From a virus, in IMG/VR virus record IMGVR_UViG_3300032753_000007, positions 32,001 to 96,000 of that record: a stretch of 64,000 bases of DNA; one strand, given 5' to 3'. The position numbers were made by a program, and so were the translations under genes. A model generated the notes under the pieces. That model was not told the DNA's origin, made no database searches, and saw nothing but the letters and a program-made list of their open reading frames with translations. Of this stretch, positions 1 to 60,250 are shown one piece after another (position 1 is the stretch's first letter; the number at the start of each line of letters is the position of its first letter).

Positions 1-189
1 AATAATCTTTCATTGTATATTAAACAAATATTACAAGAAGGTTGTTGTAGTCAGTTGTTTATTATAGAGCACTATACGCATGTACAAAACTTTTTACCTA
101 ATCATGATACTATTGTGTTAGATGCTACTAACATTACTGTACCCGATAATTATAATCAACATACCACCATTAAAACAGGAGTAGATTAA
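1..189 (+). CDS. 3' end of probable SbcC/Rad50-like SMC ATPase (partial; phiKZ gp165-like position)
   Basis: Frame 1 is open from the window edge: NNLSLYIKQILQEGCCSQLFIIEHYTHVQ...GVD*. QLFIIEH resembles the ABC/SMC H-loop (QxFxISH). Lies directly upstream of the spike gene, as in phiKZ-like phages. Confidence 0.6.
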   Translation, partial: NNLSLYIKQILQEGCCSQLFIIEHYTHVQNFLPNHDTIVLDATNITVPDNYNQHTTIKTGVD

Positions 190-1022
190 TGACACCTAAT
201 AGTAACTTAGTATCAGTAGGCATTGGTACTGTAGCACAAGATAAAAATGATAATAGTCGGTTTATATCTGTTTATTTATCAGAACAACATCCTTTTTATG
301 AAGGTGATGTAACGAATGATGTTGCTGAAATAGAAAGAACGGTTATAGATGAACATGGCAATAGTACTAAACTAAATCTCTATAAAACAATGGCTGTTAA
401 AGCTGATTGGTTAGAAGATGAAAGTAATAGAGAAACAGCACCCCATGTAAAAAAAGGTGAATCCGTTAATGTATTTGAAAAGAAAGATACAAGTGAATAC
501 TATTGGCAGCCTCGTAAAAAGAATAACCCTACGCGTAGAGCTGAAGCCGTTACGTTTGCATGGAGTGCTGCTAGTCAAAGTAATGACATAGATATTCCTA
601 AAACAGCAGATAATCATTATAGCGCTACTGTTGATGGTATTAATGGCCATATTACCATTACTACATCGAAAGATAATGGTGAAGTAGCTAAATACACTAT
701 ACAAGTACAAGGTAAACAAGGACATGTTACTGTAGCAGATGATTTAGGTAATCTGATTCAACTAAACTCATCTACAAAAACAATTACATTATCTAATGGT
801 GATAATACTTATGTTCAATTATCTGGCCCTAATATACTAGCAAATGCAAATGAAACTATTTTATTAAAAGCAAATAATATTGTATTGGACAGTAGTACCG
901 TATCTATAACAGGTACAACACAAACTAACAATAACGTTAATGTAACCGGTGATGTTAGTGTAAGCGGTACTACTACAACAAATACAATTAATGCTTCGAC
1001 TTATATAGGGGATAATGATTAA
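189..1022 (+). CDS. Baseplate central spike / gpV-like virion protein (phiKZ gp164-like)
   Basis: N-terminal OB-fold-like region (GTVAQDK...APHVKKGESVNV...YYW) followed by beta-strand repeats and a C-terminal beta-helix pattern (VSITGT..NVNVTGDVSVSGT). Confidence 0.65.
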   Translation: MTPNSNLVSVGIGTVAQDKNDNSRFISVYLSEQHPFYEGDVTNDVAEIERTVIDEHGNSTKLNLYKTMAVKADWLEDESNRETAPHVKKGESVNVFEKKDTSEYYWQPRKKNNPTRRAEAVTFAWSAASQSNDIDIPKTADNHYSATVDGINGHITITTSKDNGEVAKYTIQVQGKQGHVTVADDLGNLIQLNSSTKTITLSNGDNTYVQLSGPNILANANETILLKANNIVLDSSTVSITGTTQTNNNVNVTGDVSVSGTTTTNTINASTYIGDND

Positions 1023-1483
1023 TGAGTACTAAAGTGATAGATAAAGAAATAGTAAGCTATAGTATTAAAAAAACAGAAGAGTTGACATTATCTGCTAAGC
1101 CTATTGTTCCTGAAGAACGTCCTGAATTATTAGAAGGCGTTACTTATAAGTTTAAAGCATTAGAGTTTGCTTATTATGTTACTATTAATGACATGGTACT
1201 AGAGAATGAAGATGGTAGTAAAACATATATTCCTTATGAAATATTTTTAAATAGTAAAAATGTAGAACACTATCATTGGATAGTGTGTACGATGCGAATT
1301 ATTTCTTTATACTTTAAAGCTAATGGCGATATAGTTAAATTAATTAGCGAATTAAAAGAAACACACGATGCTAGTGGTGGTTATTTTAAGAAAGGTGGAG
1401 GCAGAATGCCATCTGTTGTAGCTGAGTTAGGGTTTGTATTAGAAAAACACATTAATCGTTTTAAATCTGGAGATAAAAAATGA
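1022..1483 (+). CDS. TSCPD-domain / NrdJb-like protein (class II ribonucleotide reductase-associated domain)
   Basis: Motifs RPELLEGVTYK, YVTIND, PYEIFLNSKN, RIIS, ELK..D..GGY, MPSVVAELG match the TSCPD/NrdJb pattern. Confidence 0.75.
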   Translation: MSTKVIDKEIVSYSIKKTEELTLSAKPIVPEERPELLEGVTYKFKALEFAYYVTINDMVLENEDGSKTYIPYEIFLNSKNVEHYHWIVCTMRIISLYFKANGDIVKLISELKETHDASGGYFKKGGGRMPSVVAELGFVLEKHINRFKSGDKK

Positions 1484-1866
1484 ACATCAATCAAATCGAT
1501 CAAGTGCCTGTAGCAGTGTTGCCTAGCATATTGCCTTTAATAACTGCTGCTATTAAGTCAGATATGTTCATTAAATTATCTATTATTGATAATGAGTTAG
1601 ATAGCTTTGAATTAAAATCTAAAGAAACAGGAAAATGCCTTTATATGGATCCATTAAAGTTTTTAAATGGTGAAACACATGCAGAAGCTTTAATACCTAC
1701 ACCACGTAATATTCCTGAACATAATCCACATGCCGTATATCAACCAAACATTAATGTAAGAAAGTGGGATACTGAAGGACTAAAAATCAGTGATTATCCA
1801 CCTGGTGCATCGCCCAGTGTATCTACTGTAGCTACTAATAACTTTCCAATATCACGCGCATACTAG
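1480..1866 (+). CDS. Hypothetical protein
   Basis: 128-aa ORF, ATGA overlap with the upstream gene, GGAG SD. Confidence 0.6.
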   Translation: MNINQIDQVPVAVLPSILPLITAAIKSDMFIKLSIIDNELDSFELKSKETGKCLYMDPLKFLNGETHAEALIPTPRNIPEHNPHAVYQPNINVRKWDTEGLKISDYPPGASPSVSTVATNNFPISRAY

Positions 1867-1882
1867 CATAGTAACGCAGTTT

Positions 1883-1995
1883 ATAAATTCAAATAATTTT
1901 AATATAGATATAGTTTACATGAATAAAGAATAATCTTTATTAACGTATCGTTACGTTTTAACGAATTAAATCCCTGATGAAGGGAAGGAAATAAC
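1883..1995 (+). promoter_or_regulatory. Cassette leader copy 1: conserved promoter, 5' hairpins and GATGA-loop hairpin abutting the SD
   Basis: ATAAATTCAAATAATTTTAATATAGATATAGTTTACATGAATAAAGA; hairpins 1922-1941 and 1942-1957; TCCCT-GATGA-AGGGA at 1971-1985, then AAGGA. Repeated at 5869, 35845 and 59714. Confidence 0.85.
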
Positions 1996-2331
1996 ATGAA
2001 AACTTTATATATCTGTAATGCCTTTTCTCTTCAAATGCTTGCGTTTGAAGAGAACATGATACGGGTAACCCCCGTACCATCTCCAGCCGCATGGTTGGAG
2101 AATGTCGAACCATTGTTCGACATTCTCCACTCTGCCGTCGGCCATGCCGACACAGCTGCTATATTTTCTTCCGTATTAAATATGGAAGTAAAAGAAAACA
2201 GGACTTCAATATCGATGTCGAAAGACATAGAGCTATTGGTGGGCCAGTACAGCGGCCCACGCTTGCCAGAGGGGGCAACAACGCTCCCTCAGGGAGCAAC
2301 AATTAAGTGGTTCCATGTTAAGCTAGTATAA
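1996..2331 (+). CDS. acrIII-1: AcrIII-1 family (DUF1874, SIRV1 gp29/YddF-like) viral ring nuclease, anti-type III CRISPR
   Basis: 111 aa with family motifs in order: LYICNAFSLQML, SAVGHADTA (catalytic GH), NR, VGQ..GPRLPEG, C-terminal KWF. Confidence 0.85.
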   Translation: MKTLYICNAFSLQMLAFEENMIRVTPVPSPAAWLENVEPLFDILHSAVGHADTAAIFSSVLNMEVKENRTSISMSKDIELLVGQYSGPRLPEGATTLPQGATIKWFHVKLV

Positions 2332-2383
2332 GCTAGCTTAACATGGTTAGCTAGGCATCAGTGATTAATCACTGATGCCTAGC
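2313..2383 (+). terminator. Tandem hairpins / intrinsic terminator of cassette 1
   Basis: 14-bp stem 2313-2346 overlapping the stop codon, then a perfect 34-bp palindrome 2350-2383 centred on GATTAATC, then a long T tract. Confidence 0.85.
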
Positions 2384-2419
2384 CACTTTTCTTTTTTCTA
2401 TTTTTTTTTTCATTTACAT

Positions 2420-2445
2420 TATATAACTATATTATTACTAAGGTA
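2420..2445 (+). promoter_or_regulatory. Putative phage early promoter (TATATTATT core)
   Basis: CTATATTATTACTAAG. The motif recurs upstream of several accessory operons and resembles the phiKZ early consensus TATATTAC. Confidence 0.55.
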
Positions 2446-2551
2446 AATAACATATCTATTAAGTTTAGGAGTATAAATAATGGATACGTTTTCAAAACCT
2501 AATACCAAAGAAATCATATAATGCAGTATATCACAATAAGGAATGAGTATA

Positions 2552-3181
2552 ATGAATTTTAATTCTCAACAAGCAAAAAATAACACAATAATACATAAAC
2601 CATATACGTCTTTGTATTTAAATCAGTTATTAGCAGATAATAAGTTAATACTTAATTCGCGTAGTGAAGAAGTATTCTTCCCGTTAGAGATTGCACCTGC
2701 TAACGCATCAGTTAAAATTCCATGTCTTTATGATAAATCTATTTGTAAAAATAAACCAATATCTTCTAAATGGTTTTATAAAATGGAAGATCTGTTTAAT
2801 GATTTATTAGATGAAGAAAACTGGGATTGGGGTTTACCTTATCCTACATTAAATGCGTTTCAAGCTTTCTTTAACGTGCTGAATGATTTAGACCCACCAC
2901 GTAAACCAACTATTGGCGTTACATCTGATAGTGCGTTAACAATGTATTGGATTAATACAAGAGCTACTGTAGTCATTAAATTAAAAGACATCGATAATAT
3001 AACTATGCGGTTTAAAGTAACTAATGATGATTTAGTAGAGCTAACATCCGATTACATTAATAAAGCAGAATCATTTAAATGGATTTTTGAAATTCATAAT
3101 TTAAATGATGTATTACTGGATATTAAAATAAAGTATAATATTATACCTAATGTTTTTAAAATTGACGGTTTAATTAATTAA
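2552..3181 (+). CDS. Hypothetical protein
   Basis: ORF track gives 2543..3181; the ATG at 2552 has better spacing to the AAGGA SD. Confidence 0.6.
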   Translation: MNFNSQQAKNNTIIHKPYTSLYLNQLLADNKLILNSRSEEVFFPLEIAPANASVKIPCLYDKSICKNKPISSKWFYKMEDLFNDLLDEENWDWGLPYPTLNAFQAFFNVLNDLDPPRKPTIGVTSDSALTMYWINTRATVVIKLKDIDNITMRFKVTNDDLVELTSDYINKAESFKWIFEIHNLNDVLLDIKIKYNIIPNVFKIDGLIN

Positions 3182-3193
3182 AGGAAATCAGTT

Positions 3194-3376
3194 ATGTCTA
3201 TTAAAGAAATACTTAAACTATTTGTTTATACATTAACACTATTTATTGCTGTTAATGTTTTGTTTTATATTCAATTAGCAACAGTTGATGCAGAAACACT
3301 TATTATATCAAGTATAGTTTGTGATTTGTATTTTTTAATCGTTTATCTTTATCGAGTGAGATTTCTATGGAAATGA
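3194..3376 (+). CDS. Small two-TM membrane protein
   Basis: AAGGA SD; 60 aa with two hydrophobic segments. Confidence 0.6.
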   Translation: MSIKEILKLFVYTLTLFIAVNVLFYIQLATVDAETLIISSIVCDLYFLIVYLYRVRFLWK

Positions 3377-3492
3377 TTAGGTATGTAAGATTTTGTATGA
3401 TCCCTATAGTAATTGGCATAATCGCATTTTTGATTATTACTTGGGATGGATGGAGTGATGACAATGGCGACGATTACAAGCATGATATATAA
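3367..3492 (+). CDS. Small single-TM peptide (41 aa, below track cutoff)
   Basis: MEMIRYVRFCMIPIVIGIIAFLIITWDGWSDDNGDDYKHDI*; fills the gap up to the DHFR SD. Confidence 0.5.
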   Translation: MEMIRYVRFCMIPIVIGIIAFLIITWDGWSDDNGDDYKHDI

Positions 3493-3504
3493 GGAAAACA
3501 GATT

Positions 3505-4335
3505 ATGAAAAAAATAGCATTAGTAATAGCCGCTACTGAAGATCATTTGATTGGATTAGATGGCAAAATACCCTGGCACATTACAAAAGACCTACAGCGA
3601 TTTAAACACGTCACTATGGGCGGTGTCGTTATCATGGGCAATAATACCTGGAAGTCATTAAACTGCAAGCCATTACCAGGTAGAATTAATATTGTTATTA
3701 CACATGAAGATAATCTATTGCCTATACCTGAAGTACCACAAACAGATGTAGCGTATAGATTTATGTTTAATTCAGATACACCTACACCTGAAGCCTTATT
3801 AAACTTACCACAATTTAATGATTATAAACTATTTATTATTGGCGGCGCTAGCCTATATAGTAAATTCTTTAAATACTGTAATGAAATACATTACACTCAT
3901 ATCCATGATATATTAGGTACTGAAATAGATCCTGAACATAAAGGCGTTTATTATGAGTTACCTGAAATACATGAAGATGAATGGACTCAAGCTATTGTAA
4001 GTGACTATACTGATCACTCCTACGAACTCTTTATAAAAGCCAAAACACCTGATACACTTGAAGAAGCGTGGAATAGGTTTTATGATATTTTAATATCTAA
4101 TAAGGATAACTACGATGAGCGTTTTGTAAAGGCCGTTAAAACGACCTATATGAAAGGTGCATTAGATGCATTACAGATTTATTCATTAATGATAATGGAT
4201 GGTAAATGTGATTGTCCATCAACTATAACTGAAAAATTAGTTGGTCCTATCACAGTAACACTGGGTGTCGATAAATTTATTGGGTTATTGACTAAGCTGA
4301 TTATGGAACCAACTGCAGAGAATGAAAATGAGTGA
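3505..4335 (+). CDS. folA: Dihydrofolate reductase with ~95-aa C-terminal extension
   Basis: IGLDGKIPWHITKDLQRFK, VIMGNNTWKSL, PLPGRINIVIT and FIIGGASLY are canonical DHFR motifs. Confidence 0.93.
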   Translation: MKKIALVIAATEDHLIGLDGKIPWHITKDLQRFKHVTMGGVVIMGNNTWKSLNCKPLPGRINIVITHEDNLLPIPEVPQTDVAYRFMFNSDTPTPEALLNLPQFNDYKLFIIGGASLYSKFFKYCNEIHYTHIHDILGTEIDPEHKGVYYELPEIHEDEWTQAIVSDYTDHSYELFIKAKTPDTLEEAWNRFYDILISNKDNYDERFVKAVKTTYMKGALDALQIYSLMIMDGKCDCPSTITEKLVGPITVTLGVDKFIGLLTKLIMEPTAENENE

Positions 4336-4383
4336 TGATAAATTACCAAATACTCTTATACCCATTCCAAAGAGAAAAAAATA

Positions 4384-4737
4384 ATGAATGACGATTACTT
4401 TATTTCAAAGAAAGCAAAACTTTTATTTATCTTGTTTAATACATCAGGTAAACTACGAAGAGAATTGTTAGGTGTAACTTATACTACGTATATAACTGTA
4501 GCTTCAGCTAAGCTGTGGTACGATGGTACACTTGCTGTATTAGAGTGTCCAACCACATTAAATGAAAATGAATGCGATAGTGAGGCAATGCTTTCAGCTA
4601 AACTACAATTAGCACGTGTATGTGAGGATGAGGGCGTTTATCATCCTGAAGTCATTTCGTCAGCAAAATCCATATTACGTTGGATTTATAAAGAAGAAAT
4701 TTTAACCTATCATCAATCTTACTTACAAACAAAATAA
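4384..4737 (+). CDS. Hypothetical protein
   Basis: 117-aa ORF in operon; preceded by an 18-aa coupled mini-ORF 4328-4384. Confidence 0.6.
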   Translation: MNDDYFISKKAKLLFILFNTSGKLRRELLGVTYTTYITVASAKLWYDGTLAVLECPTTLNENECDSEAMLSAKLQLARVCEDEGVYHPEVISSAKSILRWIYKEEILTYHQSYLQTK

Positions 4738-5009
4738 TGACATTAGTTATTCAAGAAAAATACTTCTCATTTGAAACAGAAACCATTAAAGAAAAAATAG
4801 AACGATTAACAGTACATCGCAATAACCTCATGGAGCAATATGGCAATACTGCTGCAAGTGAACGAGAGAAATGCGTGTTATTAGAATTTGATAAAGATAT
4901 TAAAAGACTCAAAACACAATTGAGTCCTAAAAATGCTGCTAAAGAAAAAATAGAAAAGGAAGAAATTGATAAAAAGAATTGGGGATATTTAGGTAAAGTA
5001 CATGGTTAA
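4737..5009 (+). CDS. Hypothetical coiled-coil protein
   Basis: TAATG-coupled 90-aa ORF, E/K rich. Confidence 0.6.
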   Translation: MTLVIQEKYFSFETETIKEKIERLTVHRNNLMEQYGNTAASEREKCVLLEFDKDIKRLKTQLSPKNAAKEKIEKEEIDKKNWGYLGKVHG

Positions 5010-5169
5010 AAAAGATATTGTTCTTGGCGGAACAAGATATAATGTTACATATGAGCAAAAAGAAAATGAAATCATAATTCATTCTTTAATTGCTGGTGAT
5101 AAACCCATGTCAGTAAATCTTTGTATGCCTAGCGTATTAGCGTTAATTAAAAAGAAGTTAACAGAATAA
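5002..5169 (+). CDS. Small hypothetical protein (55 aa, below track cutoff)
   Basis: AGGT SD; MVKKDIVLGGTRYNVTYEQ...KKKLTE*; ends just before a palindrome. Confidence 0.55.
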   Translation: MVKKDIVLGGTRYNVTYEQKENEIIIHSLIAGDKPMSVNLCMPSVLALIKKKLTE

Positions 5170-5177
5170 ACTAACCA

Positions 5178-5209
5178 CTATACTAGATGTCATATGACAT
5201 CTAGTATAG
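5178..5209. terminator. Perfect 32-bp palindrome (terminator/processing hairpin)
   Basis: CTATACTAGATGTCAT|ATGACATCTAGTATAG, intergenic. Confidence 0.7.
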
Positions 5210-5229
5210 CCTTATTATAGGATAATCAA

Positions 5230-5553
5230 ATGAAATTTATAGATATAATAAATCATTCAGTACCAAAACATAATCTAATTGATGTAGTGCATCATTCTTG
5301 GATAATGTGCTTTGGTCATAAAACATCAAGTAATAATGACTTTTGGTTTCCCTATCAAGGTTATGGCCCAAAAAGAATGCGTATACCTATTAGGTGTTTA
5401 TCTATTGATAATGATTGGACAAAAGTTTATAAGCGTTCAAGAAAACCGTTTTGTGATATAGTCGCAAAACGATATTATAATAAGCCTGTAGCTATATCAG
5501 GTAAGTGGATTAGTAAAAAAGAAAAAGCTAAACCATGGGGCTATATTAGATGA
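5230..5553 (+). CDS. Basic hypothetical protein
   Basis: AGGA SD; K/R/W-rich 107 aa. Confidence 0.55.
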   Translation: MKFIDIINHSVPKHNLIDVVHHSWIMCFGHKTSSNNDFWFPYQGYGPKRMRIPIRCLSIDNDWTKVYKRSRKPFCDIVAKRYYNKPVAISGKWISKKEKAKPWGYIR

Positions 5554-5882
5554 GCTATATTAATAATTGGCTATATCACCATTTGCGTGATATTCAGTTT
5601 AATAAGATACTAAAGATTAATAAAAAACGCCCTAGAGTAGAAAAGAGAATGAGGAAAAGAATTAAACCTACTAAAACTAAACTATTTATTAATGTAACCT
5701 ATCGATCTTATCCTCTTATAAGGTGGTATAAAGAGCTATTAAGAGAAGAGATAGATGATATTATTTTTAATAAACAAAGACTATGGATTAAAGATAGTAT
5801 TAGAGAGCGCTATAACTGGTACAGTGGGTTACGTGCTAGAGTGATTGCTTGTAAAAATAAGGATTTTTATAAATTCAAATAA
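5550..5882 (+). CDS. Highly basic hypothetical protein (3' end runs into cassette 2 leader)
   Basis: ATGA-coupled; the last codons YKFK* are formed by the conserved leader sequence ATAAATTCAAATAA. Confidence 0.55.
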   Translation: MSYINNWLYHHLRDIQFNKILKINKKRPRVEKRMRKRIKPTKTKLFINVTYRSYPLIRWYKELLREEIDDIIFNKQRLWIKDSIRERYNWYSGLRARVIACKNKDFYKFK

Positions 5883-5987
5883 TTTTCATATATATATAGT
5901 TTATATGAATAAAGAATAATCTTTATTTAGTTAACGTTAACTATTAACGCATTCATATGCTGCGATGAGCAGCAAGGATATACGATC
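5869..5987 (+). promoter_or_regulatory. Cassette leader copy 2
   Basis: ATAAATTCAAATAATTTTCATATATATATAGTTTATATGAATAAAGAATAATCTTTATT; palindrome 5928-5943; TGCTGC-GATGA-GCAGCA at 5958-5974, then AAGGA. Confidence 0.85.
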
Positions 5988-6326
5988 ATGAACAAGTTCA
6001 ATAAATTTGCCACTGACTTTTCAACAGGTTTCAAAGTGGGTTATCAAAACCCTCATCGCCTGCCAATGTATTGGGGAATGCTGAAGCTGCATTGGTACGC
6101 AGCTTTTATTAAAGCCTCATATGAGGCTAAACACTCAATTGAAAAACAAAAAGTCCCCCAGTGGGCACTGGGGATCGTGCACCGCGCTTGCGCGGTGCAC
6201 GATAAAAGAATCAACTGGGCTACCAAAAAATTTAATGGAATAGTCTTAGATGGTTGGATGGACTTCGGCTTAGAAGCGCTTAAAGCGCATCTAAGCAGAC
6301 AGATAAGGAGAGCCGAAAGAGGCTAA
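5988..6326 (+). CDS. Cassette 2 cargo: hypothetical protein (candidate anti-defence)
   Basis: 112-aa ORF behind the conserved leader; higher GC than its neighbours; coding sequence rich in hairpins. Confidence 0.75.
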   Translation: MNKFNKFATDFSTGFKVGYQNPHRLPMYWGMLKLHWYAAFIKASYEAKHSIEKQKVPQWALGIVHRACAVHDKRINWATKKFNGIVLDGWMDFGLEALKAHLSRQIRRAERG

Positions 6327-6337
6327 CCTTACGTCGG

Positions 6338-6410
6338 CTTCCAGATTACTTTAAAGTAATCTGGAAGTCAATACTGCTGCAGAGATTAATCTCTGCAGCA
6401 GTATTTTTTT
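6338..6410. terminator. Tandem perfect palindromes / bidirectional terminator
   Basis: 30-bp palindrome 6338-6367 and 36-bp palindrome 6370-6405 (centre GATTAATC) plus T tract, between convergent genes. Confidence 0.85.
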
Positions 6411-7259
6411 TTATGCTAAATCTTTATTTATTTTTTTGCTTGTTTCTGATTGGGCATAGCCTACTAGCTTTACTTGAAATAATACAATAGAAAACAGTTC
6501 TAATGCTTTAGCACAGTTTAAGATATATTCTCTTAATTGTTCTAATTTAGCTTCAGGTAATTCTTTTAGTATTTGCTCATGCTCTTTACTAGAGGTTAAT
6601 TTAGTAATGTAATCTAATAGTCTTTTTAATCTAGCGGTAATTTCAGCAGTATTTACTTTAGATGCAGTATCAATTAATAAGGTAACTTGTTTAAAGCATT
6701 TCTCATAGCCTTCTACATCACCGTATAAATCAATAAATAAACGATTATGAATACCATTATCAACGGACTGATTAAAATGCTTCATTAACTCATCATTGTG
6801 TTTTTTATAATCTAATGCATGTGGATCTAAGTTAATCCATACTTTATACAATGTTTCAGGTTTACTAATACAAATAGCTAACCATTGCTCTAATGGCTTT
6901 AATAATAAGTTATCTATATTACTCAATGTATCTAATGCTTGATGTAATGTCTCTACATAAGCAGGTAAGTCTTTATCAATATAAGCAGGTGCACAAACTG
7001 TATAGGTTGTTAATGCAGTTCTACCTAATTTATTGATATTATTAACACTCGTTTTAAAACCAGTATTATCTAAAAAGTTTAATCGTAGTGCTTTGTTATT
7101 TAACGAAGCTGATTCATCTGACAATACAGAGGTTACTTTAGTAAAGAAACCTACTGCAAAGTTTTTAACAGAAGCAAAGTCAAAGCCTTCCATAGCGACT
7201 TCAACTAAATCTTCATCTGTATATCCTAGATTTTTTAAAATAGCGTTATTTAAGCTCAT
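6411..7259 (-). CDS. Virion head protein with probable prohead-protease-cleaved propeptide
   Basis: Acidic N-terminus ending VAME|GF fits the phiKZ-type protease consensus (S/A/G)-x-E; divergent from uvsX. Confidence 0.6.
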   Translation of the reverse strand: MSLNNAILKNLGYTDEDLVEVAMEGFDFASVKNFAVGFFTKVTSVLSDESASLNNKALRLNFLDNTGFKTSVNNINKLGRTALTTYTVCAPAYIDKDLPAYVETLHQALDTLSNIDNLLLKPLEQWLAICISKPETLYKVWINLDPHALDYKKHNDELMKHFNQSVDNGIHNRLFIDLYGDVEGYEKCFKQVTLLIDTASKVNTAEITARLKRLLDYITKLTSSKEHEQILKELPEAKLEQLREYILNCAKALELFSIVLFQVKLVGYAQSETSKKINKDLA

Positions 7260-7338
7260 AGTTTTCTCATTTTATTTAATTAGTAACCCCCATTATTTTA
7301 TAGACAATCCGTTAACTTAACAAATTGGATATATAATA

Positions 7339-8838
7339 ATGAATCTATTATCAGGTTTTACATCAGTACCGGCTATTACGCCAGCTTTTAATGTAGGTGG
7401 TGGTTTTGATATTTTAACCGGTGCATACTATATTGGTAGATGGGGGCAATCTATATTAAACGGTGGTTTATATTCTACAGTATCTATCGCTGGCCCTGCT
7501 AATTCATTTAAATCAGCTCTCATAGATTACTTACATTTAACAGTATGTGATAGAATTAAACCGTATCAATTATCTAAGTATTGTACTGAGAATTCATCTA
7601 CTTATAAACGGTTACAAGCACTTTGTGCTAAAATGCCTAATATGTCTAAAATAGATCACTCAAATGAATTTTTAGAACCTGAAGAAATAAAGATACGACT
7701 CACTACTATTAAAGAAGAAATGGGCGATGTGTATTTTTCTAAGATGAGTAAGCTATCTCGATTTAAAGCATCTGATAAATCTATAAAACGTTTTACTACA
7801 CCTTTTAGAAATGCTAAAGGCGATCCCATTACTATGATACAGCCTACTGGCCTTATCATAGACTCTATATCAGCTTTCATGACTACTAATGTAGAAGAAG
7901 GGATGATTGCTAATAATAACTTAGGTAGCTCTGAACAAAATACAGTATGGATGCGTTTAGGATTAGCTAAAAAATTATTAATATCTGAATTACCTGGATT
8001 ATGTTCTAGAGGCTCTATGTTTGTTGGTTTAACGGCTCATGTAGGCGAAGAGTTTGAATTAGGTGGCCCAATGGCACCTAAGAAACATAAGCTCACACAT
8101 GCTAAAAAAGGCACGACTATGAAAGGGGCTTCAAAAGCATTTGAGTATATAAATACTGTTTTATTTGAAATACAAAATGTTTCATTACTCAATAATAAAA
8201 CGTATAATACAGGTGTACTTTATCCAGCTAATGCAAGAGATAGAGGTGAAGAAACCGCTGATTTAATTTTAATTAAACTCATTGCTATTCGTAATAAAGA
8301 AGGTGGTAGTGGCAATAGATTAAATGTAGTTGTTTCACAACGTGAAGGTTTATTGCCTCATTTAACACAATTTCATCATTTAAAAGAATCTAAATTTTTT
8401 GGGTTAGTTGGAAATGATAGAAATTATGCATTAGCATTATTGCCCGACTTACCATTAAGTAGAACAACAGTAAGAAATCTTATTGACAATATGCCTGAGT
8501 TAAGAAGAGCATTAGAGATTACTGATGAGCTATTACAAATAAAAGAATACTGGGATACGCCTAAAGATGATTTACTCTGTACACCTGAAGAACTATACAA
8601 TGACATTATAGCATTAGGCTATAATTGGAAAACATTATTAAATACTAGAGGATGGTGGGTGTTTGATGAGCATCTTAATGATAATCTTCCTGAATTATCT
8701 ACCTGGGATTTATTGCGCATACGTAAAGGTTTATATAAGCCTTATTGGCTAAGCAGAAGTTGGGCTAAAACAGAAAAGCCAAAAGGACTCTTATTAGATG
8801 TACTATCACAAATATCTGAGGATGAAAAATATGACTAA
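7339..8838 (+). CDS. uvsX: UvsX/RecA-like recombinase (phiKZ gp152-like)
   Basis: Walker A GPANSFKS, Walker B LIIDSIS, LTAHVG and RNKEGGSG; size and position fit phiKZ-like RecA. Confidence 0.75.
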   Translation: MNLLSGFTSVPAITPAFNVGGGFDILTGAYYIGRWGQSILNGGLYSTVSIAGPANSFKSALIDYLHLTVCDRIKPYQLSKYCTENSSTYKRLQALCAKMPNMSKIDHSNEFLEPEEIKIRLTTIKEEMGDVYFSKMSKLSRFKASDKSIKRFTTPFRNAKGDPITMIQPTGLIIDSISAFMTTNVEEGMIANNNLGSSEQNTVWMRLGLAKKLLISELPGLCSRGSMFVGLTAHVGEEFELGGPMAPKKHKLTHAKKGTTMKGASKAFEYINTVLFEIQNVSLLNNKTYNTGVLYPANARDRGEETADLILIKLIAIRNKEGGSGNRLNVVVSQREGLLPHLTQFHHLKESKFFGLVGNDRNYALALLPDLPLSRTTVRNLIDNMPELRRALEITDELLQIKEYWDTPKDDLLCTPEELYNDIIALGYNWKTLLNTRGWWVFDEHLNDNLPELSTWDLLRIRKGLYKPYWLSRSWAKTEKPKGLLLDVLSQISEDEKYD

Positions 8839-10588: not shown

Positions 10589-11316
10589 AACACCACAAAC
10601 TACTTATACCCCTAGATTGTTTGTTTGATACTTATCTAGGGGTTGTTGATGCCCTGTATCCAAAAACCATCATCTCATTATTGAGTGATGGTTATTTTGG
10701 ACGTGTTCATAACAAGTTATCGGCATTTAATAAAAATATTGATGATTTAGCAGTTGCTAAAAGGTGGTCTAATCGTGATATAGAAATATTGCGAAATAGT
10801 AAACGAAGTGCATTAGTATCTGTATTAATGAAGTACTTTACTGATGTAAATAATAGTAATGAAGAAAATCCATTAGCTAATACCTATACAGTAGTCATTA
10901 ATACATGGCCTTATGATTTAGCTAATCAAGAATTAGTTGAGTTATTTTCTTTATTAATTGATTTATTTAACATTGGTGATATTAAACACATTCATGTAGC
11001 AATGGCTGATTTAACACCTGAATATATTAAAGAAAAACAATATACAAAATTCTTTTTATATGATTGGAATGAATGGCACTATCATCATAAATTAGCATTA
11101 CAGAAATGTAAAATACCTAAAATAACATGTGTATTTCCATTAACCTATATTAATGGCGTAACTACAGCTGAACATGAAGAAGAAGTAATAAAATGGACAG
11201 CAGCAGGTGCTTACTTACATATTGATTTAGAGATCGTTAGATTAGCAGATATGTCTATTGATGCTGAATTACTATTAAATGAACTAAAGGAAATTTATGA
11301 CCCACAAACAAATTGA
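10585..11316 (+). CDS. Conserved jumbo-phage protein with HAD-like N-terminal motif
   Basis: LLIPLDCLFDTYLG N-terminus, INTWPY; coupled within the core operon. Confidence 0.5.
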   Translation: MKHHKLLIPLDCLFDTYLGVVDALYPKTIISLLSDGYFGRVHNKLSAFNKNIDDLAVAKRWSNRDIEILRNSKRSALVSVLMKYFTDVNNSNEENPLANTYTVVINTWPYDLANQELVELFSLLIDLFNIGDIKHIHVAMADLTPEYIKEKQYTKFFLYDWNEWHYHHKLALQKCKIPKITCVFPLTYINGVTTAEHEEEVIKWTAAGAYLHIDLEIVRLADMSIDAELLLNELKEIYDPQTN

Positions 11317-27302: not shown

Positions 27303-27565
27303 AAGAAGAGTATAAAATTAAATTATTAGCATTAGTAAAGTTAATAAAAAAACGTTTATGTAAATTAGTAGGCTGTAATTTTTCATTAGTTGATGAAGTC
27401 ACTGTAAACGCTATTAGTAAACACCAATCTTATACTAAATTTACATTAAGCTGTAAACGCTGTAAAGGTGATATGATGATTGGTATGCTAGTGCCTATTA
27501 CTGAAATAGAGTTAGAAGATGCTATTTTATTAGAAAAATTTAAAAAGGGGTTAATTGTAAAATGA
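27299..27565 (+). CDS. Small putative Zn-binding protein (DUF1660-like)
   Basis: LCKLVGC and CKRCKG motifs; inserted between two RNAP genes. Confidence 0.5.
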   Translation: MKEEYKIKLLALVKLIKKRLCKLVGCNFSLVDEVTVNAISKHQSYTKFTLSCKRCKGDMMIGMLVPITEIELEDAILLEKFKKGLIVK

Positions 27566-31512: not shown

Positions 31513-31727
31513 GTGCAGTAATGACAACAGGCATTAATGATGTGCCTGGTAATGGCGACGTTATTGAACATGCTAGAGCAGCACGCGTAGGTGCTTGTGC
31601 AGTGAGCTTAGGCGTAGCTATTGTAAAAGAGTTAATTGGTAATGAAATTGGTAAAGAGGGCTTTAGTGATGAGTCATTGCCTGATATGATGGCTGCCGCT
31701 ATCAATAGCCATATTAGAGGATTATAA
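31509..31727 (+). CDS. Small hypothetical protein
   Basis: AAGGAG SD; ATGA-coupled to the RNAP beta gene. Confidence 0.65.
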   Translation: MSAVMTTGINDVPGNGDVIEHARAARVGACAVSLGVAIVKELIGNEIGKEGFSDESLPDMMAAAINSHIRGL

Positions 31728-35844: not shown

Positions 35845-35938
35845 ATAAATTCAAATAATTTTCATATATATATAGTTAATATGAATAAAGACAATTCCGT
35901 CTTTTCAAACGCTGCGATGAGCAGCAAGGAAAAATATT
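35845..35938 (+). promoter_or_regulatory. Cassette leader copy 3
   Basis: ATAAATTCAAATAATTTTCATATATATATAGTTAATATGAATAAAGACAATTCCGTCTTT; GCTGC-GATGA-GCAGC at 35911-35925, then AAGGA. Confidence 0.85.
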
Positions 35939-36310
35939 ATGTTTGTTTTAAAATCAGTACAACCGTTCTCTAATATAGATAACGGAAAAGTAAACTTGAC
36001 AATAACAATAACGCTAAACGGAGGTGTGGTTACAGCAAAAAGAGTAGAGTGCAGATATCTGCACGGGGTGTCCACTAACAAGCTTGTAGTAGAGAAAGAA
36101 ATCACCATTGTAGAAATGGAAGCTCTGCTTCAGTTCTACAACATTATGGACTATCTAACTCATCTCACTGATGAGTTAGTAAGAATTGAAGAAATGCCTA
36201 ATAACCACTTACATATAAGGGACTTAGAAGAGAAAATTAAGGAAATGGAAAAAACCAGTTCCTTACTAAGGAAGGCATTTCCAGATAGGATAAAAGACTT
36301 TATCTGGTAA
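35939..36310 (+). CDS. Cassette 3 cargo: hypothetical protein (candidate anti-defence)
   Basis: 123-aa ORF behind the conserved leader; internal hairpins. Confidence 0.75.
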   Translation: MFVLKSVQPFSNIDNGKVNLTITITLNGGVVTAKRVECRYLHGVSTNKLVVEKEITIVEMEALLQFYNIMDYLTHLTDELVRIEEMPNNHLHIRDLEEKIKEMEKTSSLLRKAFPDRIKDFIW

Positions 36311-36318
36311 GACTTCAG

Positions 36319-36362
36319 CTACCGCAGAGAGATTAATCTCTCTGCGGTAGTATTTTTTTTTT
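36319..36362 (+). terminator. Cassette 3 terminator, perfect 32-bp palindrome
   Basis: CTACCGCAGAGAGATT|AATCTCTCTGCGGTAG plus long T tract. Confidence 0.85.
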
Positions 36363-57551: not shown

Positions 57552-59717
57552 ATGAGTGATGCTTTTGTTAAACCACCTGACCACTATCATAGAGACCTAG
57601 ATATTAAAGGCAATGCTGAGCTAATAGCAGCTAAATATTTACAAGTCAAAACAGGACAATCATTTGATGTTTGTTTAGATTTTGTTAAAAAAGAAACAAG
57701 TGATAATGGTTTATTTCCGTTAGCGCCTAAACATTTAAAAGTATTAAGAAAAGATCAAAATCAAGATAGAGTAAAAGACGTTTATAGCATTGATAAGATA
57801 TTAGGTATAGCAACGCATGAGAAAGCAGCACTAACGGGTAATATGTGCGTGTATAGCTCAAATGAAAATATACCATGTAGTACGGCTAATTATATAAATG
57901 ATAAGTTAAATCTAAGAGCTTCTATTAAAGAGAAAGAAAAGATTGCTGAACAAGAAGGAAATAAACTATTAGCAATGACCTGTAACAATGGTCAAACTGC
58001 TGCAAAGCTATTAAATAACTCAGTATCAGGTGCTAGAGTATCACCTTATAATCCCTTACATTTAAAAACAGCACATTCTTCATTAACCTCTACCACTATG
58101 TTGTCAGTTAGTTATAGTAACTCATCTACTGAAAGATTCTTATCTGGAAATAGGCATTATTATAATCTCTCAGTCACTATTGACGCTATCCTATCTGTTA
58201 CATTAAATACAGATTATCGAGCCTTAGAAGCGACTGTCGTTAAGTATAGGCTATATATACCTAATACGTCAGATGTATTTAAAAGCATTAAGCGCTGTAG
58301 TAAGTTCTATTGGAAAAATACACATTGGGATGATGAGTTAATAGATATTATTAACGGATTAACTGATTTAGAAAAATGTGCTTTTTTATATACAGGTGAT
58401 TTTTTTAATCTCTCTAAACACAATCCAGACTTTGTAAGAGGTTTGTTATTTGAAGGTATACAGCCTGCTGATACAAATAGAGATATTGATTCAGATGCTA
58501 TTGTAAAATCTGCTGATGCAGATATTATTGCATTATGTTCAGTATTATGTTCTGAGTTTTTAACAGGCACAATACCTGCTAAAATTAAAGCAACTAACCC
58601 AGAGCAATACAAGTACTTTGCTTGTACTATACTAGATGTTTGTAATTACATGAATAAATACAGTGATTTGTTTAGCACATTATTTGCTACTGTTAATATG
58701 CCATTAATGATTAGTGAGTTTCCTAATTCAATTAGACGCTCTGTAATGGGGTCTGATACAGATTCTAATATGTTTACTGTACAAGAATGGATAGTTTGGT
58801 TATTTGGTAAAGTTATTTTTTCTATTGAATCCACTAAAATAGCACAACTATTGTGTTACTTAGTATCTGAAGTAACCGCACATTCATTAATATCCTTATC
58901 ACGCCAATTAGGCGTTAAAGATAAAGAATTATATCGATTAAAAATGAAAAGTGAATTTAGCTTTGCTATTTATGGTAGAGCAAATAAAGCTAAGCACTAT
59001 GCTACATTAATGACCTCACGTGAAGGCAATGTATTCTCAACACCTAAGTTTGAAATTAAAGGTGTGGGATTAAAAGATTCTAAAATACCTAAATCTATTA
59101 TAGGTCGCTTAGAAGAAGAATTTATTTATTTGTTTACTAAAATAACAAATAACAAAGGTATTGATATTTACCTATTATTACAACGGATTGCTAACTTAGA
59201 ACACTCAATTATGGAAGATTTAAATAAAGGCGATATTCAGTATTTATCAATGGTTAAAATAGCTAATAAAGAAGCTTATAAAAAACCAATGGCTAGTAAG
59301 TACATGCATTATGACTTATGGCAAAATGTTTATGAAAAAAAGTTTGGATCAGTAGGCGCGCCGCCTTATCAATGCGTTAAAATATCTACTACATTAATTA
59401 ATAAAACCAGTATAGAAAAATGGATAGCTGCATCAGATAGTAGCTATAGAAATGAATTAGAAGAGTGGTTAATTAGAAATAATAAGACATCATTAAAGAT
59501 GTTATTAGTGCCATTAGAGTTGTTTAAAACAGGATTGCCTAAAGAGTTTTCTGACTTGATTGATAAACGTAAAATTATAAGTGAGTTAATTTCAGGCTAT
59601 TATACATTATTAGAAATCATAGGGTTTTATGTACGTAATGAATCCACATCAATTCTATTAATGGATGATATAGAATATAGACCAGAATATGGATTACCAG
59701 GTGATGAATTAAAATAA
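57552..59717 (+). CDS. Family-B DNA polymerase, polymerase subunit (phiKZ gp50-like)
   Basis: Q.AAKLLNNSVSGA (motif B), SDTDS (motif C), KHY and KGV; no N-terminal exonuclease motifs evident (split enzyme in this group). Confidence 0.85.
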   Translation: MSDAFVKPPDHYHRDLDIKGNAELIAAKYLQVKTGQSFDVCLDFVKKETSDNGLFPLAPKHLKVLRKDQNQDRVKDVYSIDKILGIATHEKAALTGNMCVYSSNENIPCSTANYINDKLNLRASIKEKEKIAEQEGNKLLAMTCNNGQTAAKLLNNSVSGARVSPYNPLHLKTAHSSLTSTTMLSVSYSNSSTERFLSGNRHYYNLSVTIDAILSVTLNTDYRALEATVVKYRLYIPNTSDVFKSIKRCSKFYWKNTHWDDELIDIINGLTDLEKCAFLYTGDFFNLSKHNPDFVRGLLFEGIQPADTNRDIDSDAIVKSADADIIALCSVLCSEFLTGTIPAKIKATNPEQYKYFACTILDVCNYMNKYSDLFSTLFATVNMPLMISEFPNSIRRSVMGSDTDSNMFTVQEWIVWLFGKVIFSIESTKIAQLLCYLVSEVTAHSLISLSRQLGVKDKELYRLKMKSEFSFAIYGRANKAKHYATLMTSREGNVFSTPKFEIKGVGLKDSKIPKSIIGRLEEEFIYLFTKITNNKGIDIYLLLQRIANLEHSIMEDLNKGDIQYLSMVKIANKEAYKKPMASKYMHYDLWQNVYEKKFGSVGAPPYQCVKISTTLINKTSIEKWIAASDSSYRNELEEWLIRNNKTSLKMLLVPLELFKTGLPKEFSDLIDKRKIISELISGYYTLLEIIGFYVRNESTSILLMDDIEYRPEYGLPGDELK
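59220..59258 (+). repeat. 39-bp segment of the polymerase gene repeated at 59966-60004
   Basis: TTAAATAAAGGCGATATTCAGTATTTATCAATGGTTAAA vs TTAAATAAAGGGGATATACAATATTTATCAATGGTTAAA; 36/39 identical, both encode LNKGDIQYLSMVK. Confidence 0.9.
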
Positions 59718-59809
59718 ATTCAAACTTTTTTTCATATATATATAATTTATATGAATAAAGACAATTCCGTCCTTACATTAACGCTGCAATGAGCAGCAGG
59801 AGCTTTACA
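59714..59809 (+). promoter_or_regulatory. Cassette leader copy 4
   Basis: ATAAATTCAAACTTTTTTTCATATATATATAATTTATATGAATAAAGACAATTCCGTCC; GCTGC-AATGA-GCAGC at 59783-59797, then AGGAG. Confidence 0.85.
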
Positions 59810-60202
59810 ATGAGTTTAGTCGCCAAGAGCAACCACAACAAATTTAATAACAAATACGACGGTGACGTATTTCCACTGTTGACGGAAACAATATTTACTC
59901 AGCATGAGGCTGATATATCGGAACATAGCCTAGTAAAATTGAAAATCGAACTCATTTATGAGAACTTAAATAAAGGGGATATACAATATTTATCAATGGT
60001 TAAACTCCGTGAGGACCTTGTATACCAAACAAGGTACATAAGCGATCTTAAAGAAAAAATAGTAAAGGATCACGAGTTTTTACTTAAAACTCCGTGTAAG
60101 GGTACTTTAGAAACTAGCGTTGAGGCTGCATTAAATGCAGCATATGATGATCATCTACAATGGCTAGCCGAATTTATAGCCGATATGTGTAGTTCTTCTT
60201 AA
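59810..60202 (+). CDS. Cassette 4 cargo: hypothetical protein containing a DNA-polymerase-derived peptide
   Basis: True start is probably 59810 (AGGAG SD); the track start 59789 lies in the leader hairpin loop. Confidence 0.75.
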   Translation: MSLVAKSNHNKFNNKYDGDVFPLLTETIFTQHEADISEHSLVKLKIELIYENLNKGDIQYLSMVKLREDLVYQTRYISDLKEKIVKDHEFLLKTPCKGTLETSVEAALNAAYDDHLQWLAEFIADMCSSS

Positions 60203-60210
60203 CCATTTAT

Positions 60211-60250
60211 TACCACTATAGAGTTTAAACTCTATAGTGGTATTTTTTTT
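60211..60250. terminator. Cassette 4 terminator, perfect 32-bp palindrome
   Basis: TACCACTATAGAGTTT|AAACTCTATAGTGGTA plus T tract, between convergent genes. Confidence 0.85.

What the first reader, a model, noticed from the sequence alone, without database searches (positions are those of the whole stretch)
1996..2346. Cassette coding sequences are tiled with RNA hairpins ('armoured' mRNA), most extreme in the AcrIII-1 gene
Seen in acrIII-1: 13-bp stem with G(CUUG)C loop 2025-2054; stems 2060-2076 and 2081-2100; perfect 15-bp stem 2096-2129; stems 2137-2151 and 2168-2188; AUGUC-GAAA-GACAU 2215-2228; stems 2239-2260, 2263-2278, 2283-2297 and 2313-2346. Together they cover most of the ORF. The stem mismatches I found are G-U on the sense strand, and CUUG and GNRA are established extra-stable RNA tetraloops, so selection appears to act on RNA while a functional protein is still encoded. 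Core genes in the window do not look like this by eye. Inference: the structure may shield these transcripts from crRNA pairing and ssRNA-specific nucleases (Csm/Cmr, Csx1/Csm6, Cas13, toxin RNases) or from a phage host-shutoff RNase. That would suit an anti-type III gene whose mRNA must survive in the cytoplasm.
Basis: partly seen in the sequence, partly recalled or inferred. Interest (0 to 1): 0.9.

Follow-up and report, generated by a model that had tools for sequence, protein, structure and literature searches.

The report
Hairpin-packed anti-CRISPR gene message
A small anti-CRISPR (AcrIII-1 ring nuclease) gene in a giant freshwater phage is written so that its messenger RNA folds into a chain of strong hairpins, and many other phage copies of this gene family show the same habit, which suggests selection for a tightly folded, perhaps nuclease-resistant, message.

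Summary
The ORF is an intact DUF1874/AcrIII-1 gene. With 100 shuffles its tiled folding energy is z = -6.2 against dinucleotide shuffles and -6.4 against synonymous-codon shuffles. It ranks first of 102 ORFs in the 110-kb record for excess folding energy per base. A non-cassette ORF of similar GC (0.42) is ordinary.

Three more GC-rich cargo ORFs behind the same conserved promoter-like leader are equally extreme. A fifth is moderate (z about -4) and a sixth is not structured, so the trait belongs to the cargo, not the cassette frame.

- 62 other phage-borne DUF1874 genes are also more folded than their neighbours (paired p about 1e-5 under both nulls).
- Hairpins of 8 bp or more are 3.4 times as frequent as after codon shuffling.
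- The excess is larger on the sense strand (76 of 103 genes, p = 3e-8), which points to mRNA.

The protective "armour" function fits the anatomy but is untested. The armour is incomplete, and no sister DNA was available for a covariation test. This scan noted hyper-structured ring-nuclease genes before on other DNA. I found no paper describing it.

The parts
1880..1929 (+). Conserved cassette 5' module (TTTATAAATTCAAATAATTTT.ATAT..ATATAGTT.A.ATGAATAAAGA); probable early promoter of the phage's virion RNA polymerase
   Evidence: Five copies in the 110-kb record, all on the + strand, with 0-8 mismatches over 45 nt. An identical copy lies in relative L018. phiKZ-like phages have a conserved AT-rich early-promoter motif (PMC7598289). 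The role is inferred.
1922..1957 (+). Two 5'-leader hairpins (AAUAAAGA-AUAA-UCUUUAUU at 1922-1941; AACGUA-UCGU-UACGUU at 1942-1957)
   Evidence: RNAfold. The first hairpin is present in C1 and C2, with a different stem at the same place in C3, C4 and L018.
1971..1989 (+). 5-bp stem with GAUGA loop directly 5' of the Shine-Dalgarno AAGGA (1985-1989); ATG at 1996
   Evidence: Seven copies. All 35 cells are paired, 4 of 5 pairs change on both sides, and 0 of 500 shuffles reach the covariation score.
1996..2331 (+). acrIII-1 / DUF1874 ring-nuclease ORF (111 aa), GC 0.455, hairpin-tiled
   Evidence: Pfam PF08960, 32.1 bits against cut-off 26. PDB sequence hits 2x4i/6scf (SIRV1 gp29), 2j6b and 2j85. 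Invariant family residues are kept. z -6.2/-6.4.
2025..2054 (+). 13-bp hairpin with G(CUUG)C tetraloop. The 5' arm encodes the conserved FSLQM; the 3' arm encodes the lineage-specific FEEN.
2060..2076 (+). 6-bp hairpin UACGGG-UAACC-CCCGUA
2096..2129 (+). Perfect 15-bp hairpin with CAUU loop; both arms lie in a variable protein region (LENVEP / LFDILH)
2137..2151 (+). 6-bp hairpin GUCGGC-CAU-GCCGAC over the catalytic V-G-H-A-D motif. These codons are naturally palindromic, and the hairpin recurs in L092, L032 and L025.
2168..2188 (+). 9-bp hairpin with UAA loop (one G.U)
2215..2228 (+). 5-bp hairpin with GAAA (GNRA) loop
2239..2260 (+). 7-bp hairpin GUGGGCC / GGCCCAC
2266..2293 (+). 8-9-bp hairpin over PEGATTLPQG (GAGGGGGC / GCUCCCUC); the same site is paired in L072, L032 and L101
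2313..2346 (+). 14-15-bp hairpin enclosing the stop codon (2329-2331)
2350..2410 (+). Intrinsic terminator: 15-bp stem, UUAA loop within the conserved AUUAAU, then a T-rich run at 2387-2410
   Evidence: The same loop sits on different stems in C0, C2, C3 and L018, with a C-G to U-A compensatory change between C3 and L018.
5871..6412 (+). Cassette C2: 5' module, GAUGA hairpin, ORF 5988-6326 (112 aa, no known family, GC 0.442). CDS hairpins at 6174-6203 (13 bp, CUUG loop) and 6265-6299; hairpin 6338-6367; terminator 6370-6405.
   Evidence: z -5.9/-5.2
35847..36360 (+). Cassette C3: same 5' module, ORF 35939-36310 (123 aa, unknown), moderately structured
   Evidence: z -4.3/-3.7. Its 25%-identical counterpart in L018 has z_codon -3.6.
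59717..60242 (+). Cassette C4: diverged 5' module, GCUGC-AAUGA-GCAGC hairpin, ORF about 59810-60202, terminator 60211-60242. The CDS is NOT hairpin-rich.
   Evidence: z -0.6/-0.3

Best explanation
The acrIII-1 gene is the cargo of a self-contained early-gene cassette of a phiKZ-like jumbo phage from lake water. The transcript runs, in order:
- a conserved promoter module
- 5' hairpins
- a covarying GAUGA hairpin next to the ribosome-binding site
- an open initiation region of about 30 nt
- a coding region built from nine local hairpins of 5-15 bp
- a hairpin over the stop codon
- a strong terminator

The coding sequence has been shaped at synonymous sites, and at variable residues on both arms of the long stems, so that the sense-strand RNA is compact while the ring nuclease stays intact. 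The extra GC of the gene sits in the paired bases.

Shown: the structure excess, its dependence on codon arrangement, its sense-strand bias, and its recurrence in DUF1874 genes of many unrelated phages.

Inferred:
- Between ribosomes the message is mostly double-stranded and closed at both ends.
- It therefore offers few sites to single-strand-specific endoribonucleases (RNase E/Y, cOA-activated HEPN RNases such as Csm6/Csx1, Cas13 collateral activity, toxin RNases), to exonucleases and to crRNA pairing.
- A message made in a brief early burst can then still be translated in a cytoplasm where RNA is being degraded.
For: - Stems and statistics.
- Codon-shuffle z is -5 to -7 for four cargo ORFs.
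- GC is 0.47-0.56 in paired bases against 0.26-0.37 in unpaired bases, which is near the genomic level. GC3 is 0.40-0.47 against 0.21 for the genome.
- Sense-strand excess exceeds antisense in 76 of 103 genes, p = 3e-8. In the subset picked symmetrically it is 30 of 39, p = 1e-5. Own genes: C1 -0.117 vs -0.091, C0a -0.106 vs -0.065, C0b -0.151 vs -0.093.
- 62 other viral DUF1874 genes have a median excess of -0.050 against flanks -0.019 (paired p = 2e-5). Their codon-shuffle excess is -0.041 against neighbour ORFs -0.015 (p = 6.6e-6).
- Hairpins of 8 bp or more are 3.4 times more frequent than after codon shuffling, at dispersed positions.
- Mean log10 P(16 nt unpaired) is -4.8 for C1; the listed non-cassette genes range from about -2.4 to -3.9.
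- Both transcript ends are closed by hairpins, and the SD-adjacent hairpin covaries.
- Context: split multisubunit RNAP genes, a PHIKZ182-like virion protein and a tubulin-like ORF. Type III CRISPR recognises mRNA of nucleus-forming jumbo phages (10.1101/2022.06.20.496707; 10.1101/370791). cOA-activated nucleases degrade RNA non-specifically (PMC8284326 abstract).
Against: - No experiment or RNA data are available.
- Most stems are perfect Watson-Crick, so they also fold on the antisense strand and as DNA. For C2 and C3 the sense and antisense excess are equal.
- The armour is incomplete. Open windows remain, and the fraction of accessible 16-nt windows is not below the genome median.
- Cassette C4 has the same promoter and terminator but is unstructured.
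- In cellular (mostly CPR) genomes the DUF1874 neighbourhoods are as structured as the gene itself, so the link to ring nucleases in particular is loose.
- Strong ORF-wide structure is known to lower translation efficiency in E. coli (PMC5318159), which would be a cost.
- The host and its RNases are unknown.
Confidence: 0.45

Rival explanations
1. Expression throttling. ORF-wide structure is selected to lower or pace translation, or to set the dose or timing of the cargo proteins, rather than to protect the RNA.
For: ORF-wide mRNA structure units that predict translation efficiency are documented in E. coli (PMC5318159). The structure is cargo-specific, not cassette-wide. The initiation region is kept open while the body is folded.
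Against: An early anti-defence enzyme is expected to be needed quickly and in quantity. The conserved SD and the open start suggest efficient initiation. The hairpins closing both transcript ends fit stability better than dosage.
Confidence: 0.2
2. DNA-level function. The inverted repeats act as single-stranded DNA hairpins or cruciforms, for example in cassette recombination or mobility, replication or packaging, or they are generated and kept perfect by template-switch (quasi-palindrome) mutation.
For: Stems are mostly perfect Watson-Crick, and the antisense strand also has a large excess. DUF1874 genes are associated with an intergenic structured motif arranged like integron attC sites, which may act as ssDNA (PMC5737381). 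The cassette modules behave as repeat junctions to other cargos in lake metagenomes.
Against: The sense strand folds better than the antisense strand after a composition-matched control (p = 3e-8). The hairpins lie throughout the CDS rather than at cassette borders. RNA-type tetraloops are present, G(CUUG)C twice and GAAA. C4 is mobile-looking but unstructured. There is no Rfam DUF1874-motif match in window 1-8000.
Confidence: 0.12
3. The hairpins have an RNA function of their own (decoy or sponge for RNA-binding defence proteins, RNase III processing sites, precursors of small RNAs), with the protein as a passenger.
For: The long perfect stems (13-15 bp) and the conserved loops of the leader and terminator hairpins (GAUGA, AUUAAU) could be protein-binding sites.
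Against: The CDS hairpins differ in sequence between genes and between homologues, so no common ligand is apparent. There is no Rfam match. The protein is under clear purifying selection.
Confidence: 0.05
4. Composition artefact. A GC-richer gene recently imported into an AT-rich phage folds better by chance.
For: The gene is a GC island (0.455 against 0.32), and its closest relatives are in GC-richer genomes.
Against: Shuffles that keep the dinucleotide content or the codon content of the gene itself never reach the observed energy (0 of 100 each). A 15-bp perfect stem is not a chance event. A non-cassette ORF with GC 0.42 is ordinary.
Confidence: 0.02

Closest known systems
AcrIII-1 / Crn2 ring nucleases (DUF1874, PF08960; SIRV1 gp29 PDB 2x4i/6scf, STIV B116 2j85, AFV3-109 2j6b)
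   Same: The protein passes the Pfam hit above cut-off and matches the solved members. The NAFS, SAVGHADTA and GPRLPEG motifs are kept, including the GH histidine.
   Different: Nothing in what I found on the family describes the coding sequence itself being folded. Here, and in many phage homologues, it is.
PeSL promoter-terminator cassettes of T4-like phages (PMC2839356, PMC4122927)
   Same: Short conserved promoter and stem-loop modules are repeated around the genome and flank small variable ORFs. The modules act as junctions to different cargos in related genomes.
   Different: The phage lineage is different (phiKZ-like with its own RNA polymerases) and so is the motif. There is an added GAUGA-loop hairpin at the SD. 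Hairpin tiling of the cargo CDS is not mentioned in the PeSL abstracts I read.
DUF1874 RNA motif (Weinberg et al. 2017, PMC5737381)
   Same: It links DUF1874 genes with structured nucleic acid in cassette-like arrays.
   Different: That motif is an intergenic multistem element with a conserved internal loop. Rfam scanning of window 1-8000 gives no match. Here the structure lies inside the CDS and is not sequence-conserved.
ORF-centric mRNA structure units in E. coli operons (Burkhardt et al. 2017, PMC5318159)
   Same: Secondary structure is a property of a whole ORF and differs sharply between neighbouring ORFs.
   Different: Here the folding is far more extreme (perfect 13-15-bp stems, z about -6 against codon shuffles). 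It is tied to mobile early cassettes and a ring-nuclease family, and the proposed role is protection rather than tuning of translation efficiency.
End-protecting mRNA hairpins (5' stem-loops such as ompA, 3' terminator/REP stabilisers) and highly structured genomes of ssRNA phages. This comparison is from my own knowledge, not checked here.
   Same: Base pairing is used to resist RNases. In ssRNA phages the coding RNA is also densely paired.
   Different: Classical stabilisers sit only at the transcript ends. ssRNA phage structure serves genome functions. Here an ordinary mRNA of a dsDNA phage is folded along its whole length.

Membership tests
AcrIII-1 / DUF1874 (PF08960) | Match to the family profile above the curated cut-off | tested here: met
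   32.1 bits against cut-off 26, E = 1.3e-7. 1894 homologues carry PF08960.
AcrIII-1 / DUF1874 (PF08960) | Conserved GH histidine and the R..E(G) motif aligned with SIRV1 gp29 | tested here: met
   G49 and H50 (the GH pair) in SAVGHADTA, plus R89 and E92 in GPRLPEG, are invariant in the 25-sequence alignment. They align to IGHDST and QRLEEG of 2x4i. The catalytic role of these residues is from my own knowledge.
AcrIII-1 / DUF1874 (PF08960) | Cleaves cyclic tetra-adenylate and blocks type III CRISPR signalling | not testable with these tools
   Needs an enzyme assay or an in-vivo immunity assay.
PeSL-type promoter/terminator shuffling cassettes | A conserved promoter-plus-stem-loop module repeated in the genome and flanking variable small ORFs | tested here: met
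   Five 5' modules, and four terminators with a common ATTAAT loop plus a fifth (C4) with a UUAA loop. A sixth cassette lies in L018.
PeSL-type promoter/terminator shuffling cassettes | Different cargo between the same modules in related genomes | tested here: inconclusive
   Contigs from lake runs leave the reference exactly at module borders and continue into other ORFs, and one joint skips 5981-6371. These could also be other cassettes of the same, only 41% complete, genome.
PeSL-type promoter/terminator shuffling cassettes | T4-type phage with a host sigma-70 early promoter | tested here: not met
   The phage encodes split multisubunit RNAP subunits and phiKZ-like virion proteins. The module is not a T4 early promoter.
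DUF1874 RNA motif (Rfam) | Match to the covariance model next to the gene | tested here: not met
   cmscan of window 1-8000 at E <= 1 gives only four weak, unrelated hits.
Structure-selected coding sequence (RNA level) | Folding energy beyond both dinucleotide and synonymous-codon shuffles | tested here: met
   z -6.2 and -6.4, with 0 of 100 shuffles as low.
Structure-selected coding sequence (RNA level) | Excess larger on the transcribed sense strand than on its complement | tested here: met
   76 of 103 genes, p = 3e-8; C1 -0.117 against -0.091. For this single gene the difference is small.
Structure-selected coding sequence (RNA level) | Compensatory substitutions in CDS stems between close relatives | not testable with these tools
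Four lake runs carry an identical C1.

The most novel reading that the evidence does not exclude
Hairpin tiling of the coding sequence is a general and so far undescribed counter-defence adaptation. Under this reading, ring-nuclease and other anti-defence genes of phages and mobile elements are written as 'RNase-proof' messages. The antidote can then still be translated while cOA-activated HEPN RNases, Cas13 or toxin RNases are shredding single-stranded RNA. The GC-rich islands that such genes form in AT-rich genomes would be a footprint of this selection rather than of recent transfer.
Probability: 0.3. Interest if true: 0.85.

Novelty: new variant of a known kind. Interest (0 to 1): 0.7.

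Why it matters
If the folding protects the message, it adds an RNA-level layer to the phage-host arms race. The protein inactivates the cA4 signal, and its mRNA would be built to survive the RNases that the signal switches on.

It would also give a sequence-only signature for finding anti-defence genes: a GC-rich, hairpin-tiled small ORF with closed ends in an AT-rich phage. It would explain some compositional islands without invoking recent transfer.

The family-wide result makes the idea directly testable with recoded genes. That result is that DUF1874 genes are more folded than their neighbours, with a sense-strand bias.

Tried and rejected
- Megablast of window 1-8000 against the phage records gave no match.
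- The search for related loci with the single protein in viral contigs gave none.
- Pattern scans of viral contigs for the 5' module and for the GAUGA hairpin plus SD gave only chance hits in unrelated contigs.
- The single metagenome scan found one relative, L018. Its full record is not held.
- Sequencing runs: no RNA holder is listed.
- Read laying on four lake or freshwater runs showed C1 identical everywhere, so there is no natural variation for a covariation test. In run X5 part of C1 has no cover.
- Rfam gave nothing relevant.
- A simple coverage count of 7-bp stems allowing G-U does not discriminate in this AT-rich genome.
- The per-column paired fraction from MFE does not discriminate real from codon-shuffled genes.
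- The G.U against A.C mismatch count within this phage's cassettes alone (6 against 2) is not significant.
- The other cargo proteins have no Pfam or NCBIfam family. C0a matches only phrog_12854 of unknown function and C4 weakly matches phrog_12152 (unknown function). A PDB sequence search of C0a is empty.
- Early z-scores from 16-40 shuffles (-10 to -14) were replaced by the 100-shuffle values.

Full report
**What is there.** The window is bases 32001-96000 of a 109,752-bp IMG/VR virus record, about 32% GC and estimated 41% complete.
- The record encodes split multisubunit RNA polymerase beta-like subunits (phrog_2986, phrog_3148), a tail sheath, a PHIKZ182-like virion protein and a tubulin-like ORF. 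It is therefore a phiKZ-like jumbo phage.
- The same DNA occurs in several lake and freshwater metagenomes.
- ORF 1996-2331 (111 aa) is a DUF1874/AcrIII-1 family member. Pfam PF08960 scores 32.1 bits against a cut-off of 26. It matches SIRV1 gp29 (2x4i, 6scf), AFV3-109 and STIV B116.
- All 23 invariant columns of a 25-sequence alignment are kept, including the GH histidine and GPRLPEG.

**The observation.**
- 13 bp with a G(CUUG)C loop at 2025-2054
- a perfect 14-15 bp stem at 2096-2129
- shorter hairpins at 2060-2076, 2137-2151, 2168-2188, 2215-2228 (GAAA loop), 2239-2260 and 2269-2290
- a 15-bp hairpin at 2313-2346 that encloses the stop codon
- the terminator at 2350-2383

With 100 shuffles the tiled folding energy of the ORF is -114.6 kcal/mol. 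Dinucleotide shuffles give -70.8 +/- 7.1 and synonymous-codon shuffles give -75.1 +/- 6.2, so z is -6.2 and -6.4, and no shuffle comes close. My first estimates from 16-40 shuffles gave larger z values and should be disregarded in favour of these.

Excess energy per nucleotide is a mean and so is robust to the number of shuffles. By this measure the gene is first of 102 ORFs in the record (-0.137 against a median of -0.014). Places two to five are also cassette ORFs. ORF 31509-31727 has GC 0.42 but is not in a cassette, and its excess is only -0.028.

**The cassettes.** Five units on the + strand share a 45-nt module, AAATTCAAATAATTTTCATATATATATAGTTTATATGAATAAAGA, with 0-8 mismatches. They lie at genome positions 24090, 33885, 37871, 67847 and 91717. 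In window coordinates the last four are 1885, 5871, 35847 and 59717; the first lies in L002.
- Four of the five end in a 13-15-bp terminator whose loop is always ATTAAT while the stems differ; C4 ends in a 14-bp stem with a UUAA loop.
- Directly before the Shine-Dalgarno sequence of seven cassette ORFs lies a 5-bp stem with a GAUGA loop (AAUGA in C4). All 35 cells are paired, four of five pairs change on both sides, and no shuffle or slid register matches it.
- A 55.8-kb lake contig (L018) carries an identical 5' module, a 25%-identical homologue of the C3 cargo, and a terminator with a compensatory C-G to U-A change.
- phiKZ-like phages have a conserved AT-rich motif at early promoters used by the virion RNA polymerase (PMC7598289). 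The 5' module is probably that promoter, but this is inferred.
- The arrangement resembles the PeSL promoter/terminator cassettes of T4-like phages (PMC2839356, PMC4122927) in another phage lineage.

**How far the trait goes in this phage.**
- The four GC-rich cargo ORFs are all extreme, with z from -5.2 to -7.4 under both nulls. They are C0a and C0b in L002, acrIII-1, and C2 at 5988-6326.
- C3 is moderate (-4.3/-3.7).
- C4 is not structured (-0.6/-0.3).
- The trait therefore belongs to particular cargos, not to the promoter-terminator frame.
- In the structured cargos GC3 is 0.40-0.47 against 0.21 for the genome. Paired bases have GC 0.47-0.56, while unpaired bases are at 0.26-0.37, near the genomic level.
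- This fits GC being held in stems by selection. It is partly circular, because folding prefers GC.

**Beyond this phage.** I fetched 80 DUF1874 loci from viral contigs and scored 62 full-length genes.
- Their median excess is -0.050 kcal/mol/nt against -0.019 for 227 flanking blocks (paired Wilcoxon p = 2e-5). A dozen are as extreme as the gene here and stand as islands in ordinary flanks.
- Against codon shuffles the median z is -2.3 and 32% are below -4.
- Neighbouring ORFs in the same loci have a codon-shuffle excess of -0.015 against -0.041 for the DUF1874 genes (paired p = 6.6e-6, 45 of 62).
- Hairpins of 8 bp or more occur 1.54 times per gene against 0.45 after codon shuffling.
- Hairpin positions are scattered, with mild preferences after NAFSLNML, over the VGHAD motif and over PEGATTLPEG. 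The codons GUC GGY CAU GCY GAC of VGHAD are naturally palindromic. This is generic folding, not one conserved RNA element.
- In 35 cellular genomes, mostly CPR bacteria, the genes are similarly folded (median -0.051), but so are their flanks.

**RNA or DNA?** Most stems are perfect Watson-Crick, so this gene alone cannot say. In the five cassettes interior mismatches were G.U 6, A.C 2 and other 15.

I then scored 103 genes on both strands against the same shuffles. The sense strand has the larger excess in 76 (p = 3e-8). In a subset chosen symmetrically it does in 30 of 39 (p = 1e-5). The acrIII-1, C0a and C0b genes follow the trend; C2 and C3 do not. This favours selection on the transcript. 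A role for the coding strand as single-stranded DNA is not excluded.

**What it does.** The anatomy is that of a message closed at both ends and folded throughout, apart from an open initiation region. Mean log10 probability that 16 nt are unpaired is -4.8 for acrIII-1; the listed non-cassette genes range from about -2.4 to -3.9. The shield is not complete. The start of the CDS and the linker 2189-2214 are open, and the share of accessible windows is not below the genome median.

My preferred reading, at 0.45, is stabilisation of an early message against single-strand-specific RNases and guide pairing. Three points of context make it attractive:
- Type III CRISPR recognises exported mRNA of nucleus-forming jumbo phages (10.1101/2022.06.20.496707).
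- cOA-activated nucleases degrade RNA non-specifically (PMC8284326).
- The enzyme encoded here removes cA4 (by family assignment; not assayed here).

C0a resembles DUF6036-type nucleotidyltransferases in a language-model search (score 0.97, but only 13% of the cluster carries the family). This is a lead only.

The main rivals are:
- throttling of translation, since ORF-wide structure predicts low efficiency in E. coli (PMC5318159)
- a DNA-level role, by analogy with the attC-like DUF1874 motif (PMC5737381)

Pure composition is excluded.

**Novelty.** Searches of the paper library for ring nucleases together with mRNA structure, and for hairpin-rich phage coding sequences, found no description of this. 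Earlier notes of this scan report hyper-structured ring-nuclease genes on other DNA. My family-wide test is an independent check of that lead. I rate it a new variant of a known kind (gene-specific ORF-wide mRNA structure and stabilising hairpins), with an undescribed association and an untested function.

Noticed in passing
window 1971-1989, 5959-5977, 35911-35929, 59783-59801; L002 2754-2772 and 3147-3165; L018 ~10847-10865 (-): A 5-bp stem with a GAUGA (once AAUGA) pentaloop sits immediately 5' of the AAGGA/AGGAG ribosome-binding site of seven cassette ORFs. Four of five pairs show compensatory changes. It may be a translational or protein-binding element, and it has no Rfam match.
   Followed up: partly
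L002 2090-3392 (genome 24090-25392, upstream of the window): This multi-gene cassette C0 holds two hairpin-tiled ORFs (136 aa and 124 aa) and two mini-ORFs (31 aa with a hydrophobic stretch; 27 aa). The 136-aa protein matches phrog_12854 and looks like a DUF6036/MNT-type nucleotidyltransferase. If so, it could counter HEPN RNase toxins.
   Followed up: partly
window 5865-5981 and 6371-6415: Contigs from four lake or freshwater runs leave the reference exactly at the cassette's 5' module and terminator and continue into other ORFs. One starts MKKFTKFG, like the C2 cargo. One contig joins 5981 to 6371. These are either cargo swapping between strains or further cassettes in the unassembled 59% of the genome.
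   Followed up: partly
L072 and L066 (IMG/VR contigs of 117 kb and 301 kb); L115, L107 (CPR genomes): In these loci the flanking 360-nt blocks are hairpin-dense as well as the DUF1874 gene (excess -0.11 to -0.19 kcal/mol/nt). They look like multi-gene hyper-structured islands.
   Followed up: no
L092, L036 (same 120-kb contig) and L025: A second phage group carries DUF1874 genes in its own cassette type. It has a shared leader (GTGGTTTAAGTTAC...CTGTAAC) and a shared terminator (AAATAACACCCCTAGCCC...GGGGTGTTATTT). One contig holds two copies.
   Followed up: no
window 18707-25180 (-): The first 1200 nt of the 2156-aa tail-fibre-like gene show a moderate but clear folding excess (-0.052 kcal/mol/nt, z about -6 to -9 with few shuffles). 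This is the highest among non-cassette genes.
   Followed up: no
window 3505-4335: A dihydrofolate reductase domain (residues 4-163) carries a C-terminal extension of about 110 aa with no family match.
   Followed up: no
window 55165-56166: A tubulin-like ORF (PF00091, E = 1e-6, below the cut-off) is a probable PhuZ. This fits a nucleus-forming phage.
   Followed up: partly
window 31509-31727: A 72-aa ORF with GC 0.42 lies just downstream of the 1316-aa RNA polymerase beta-like gene (27562-31512). It is GC-rich like the cassette cargos, but it has no excess folding and no family match.
   Followed up: partly
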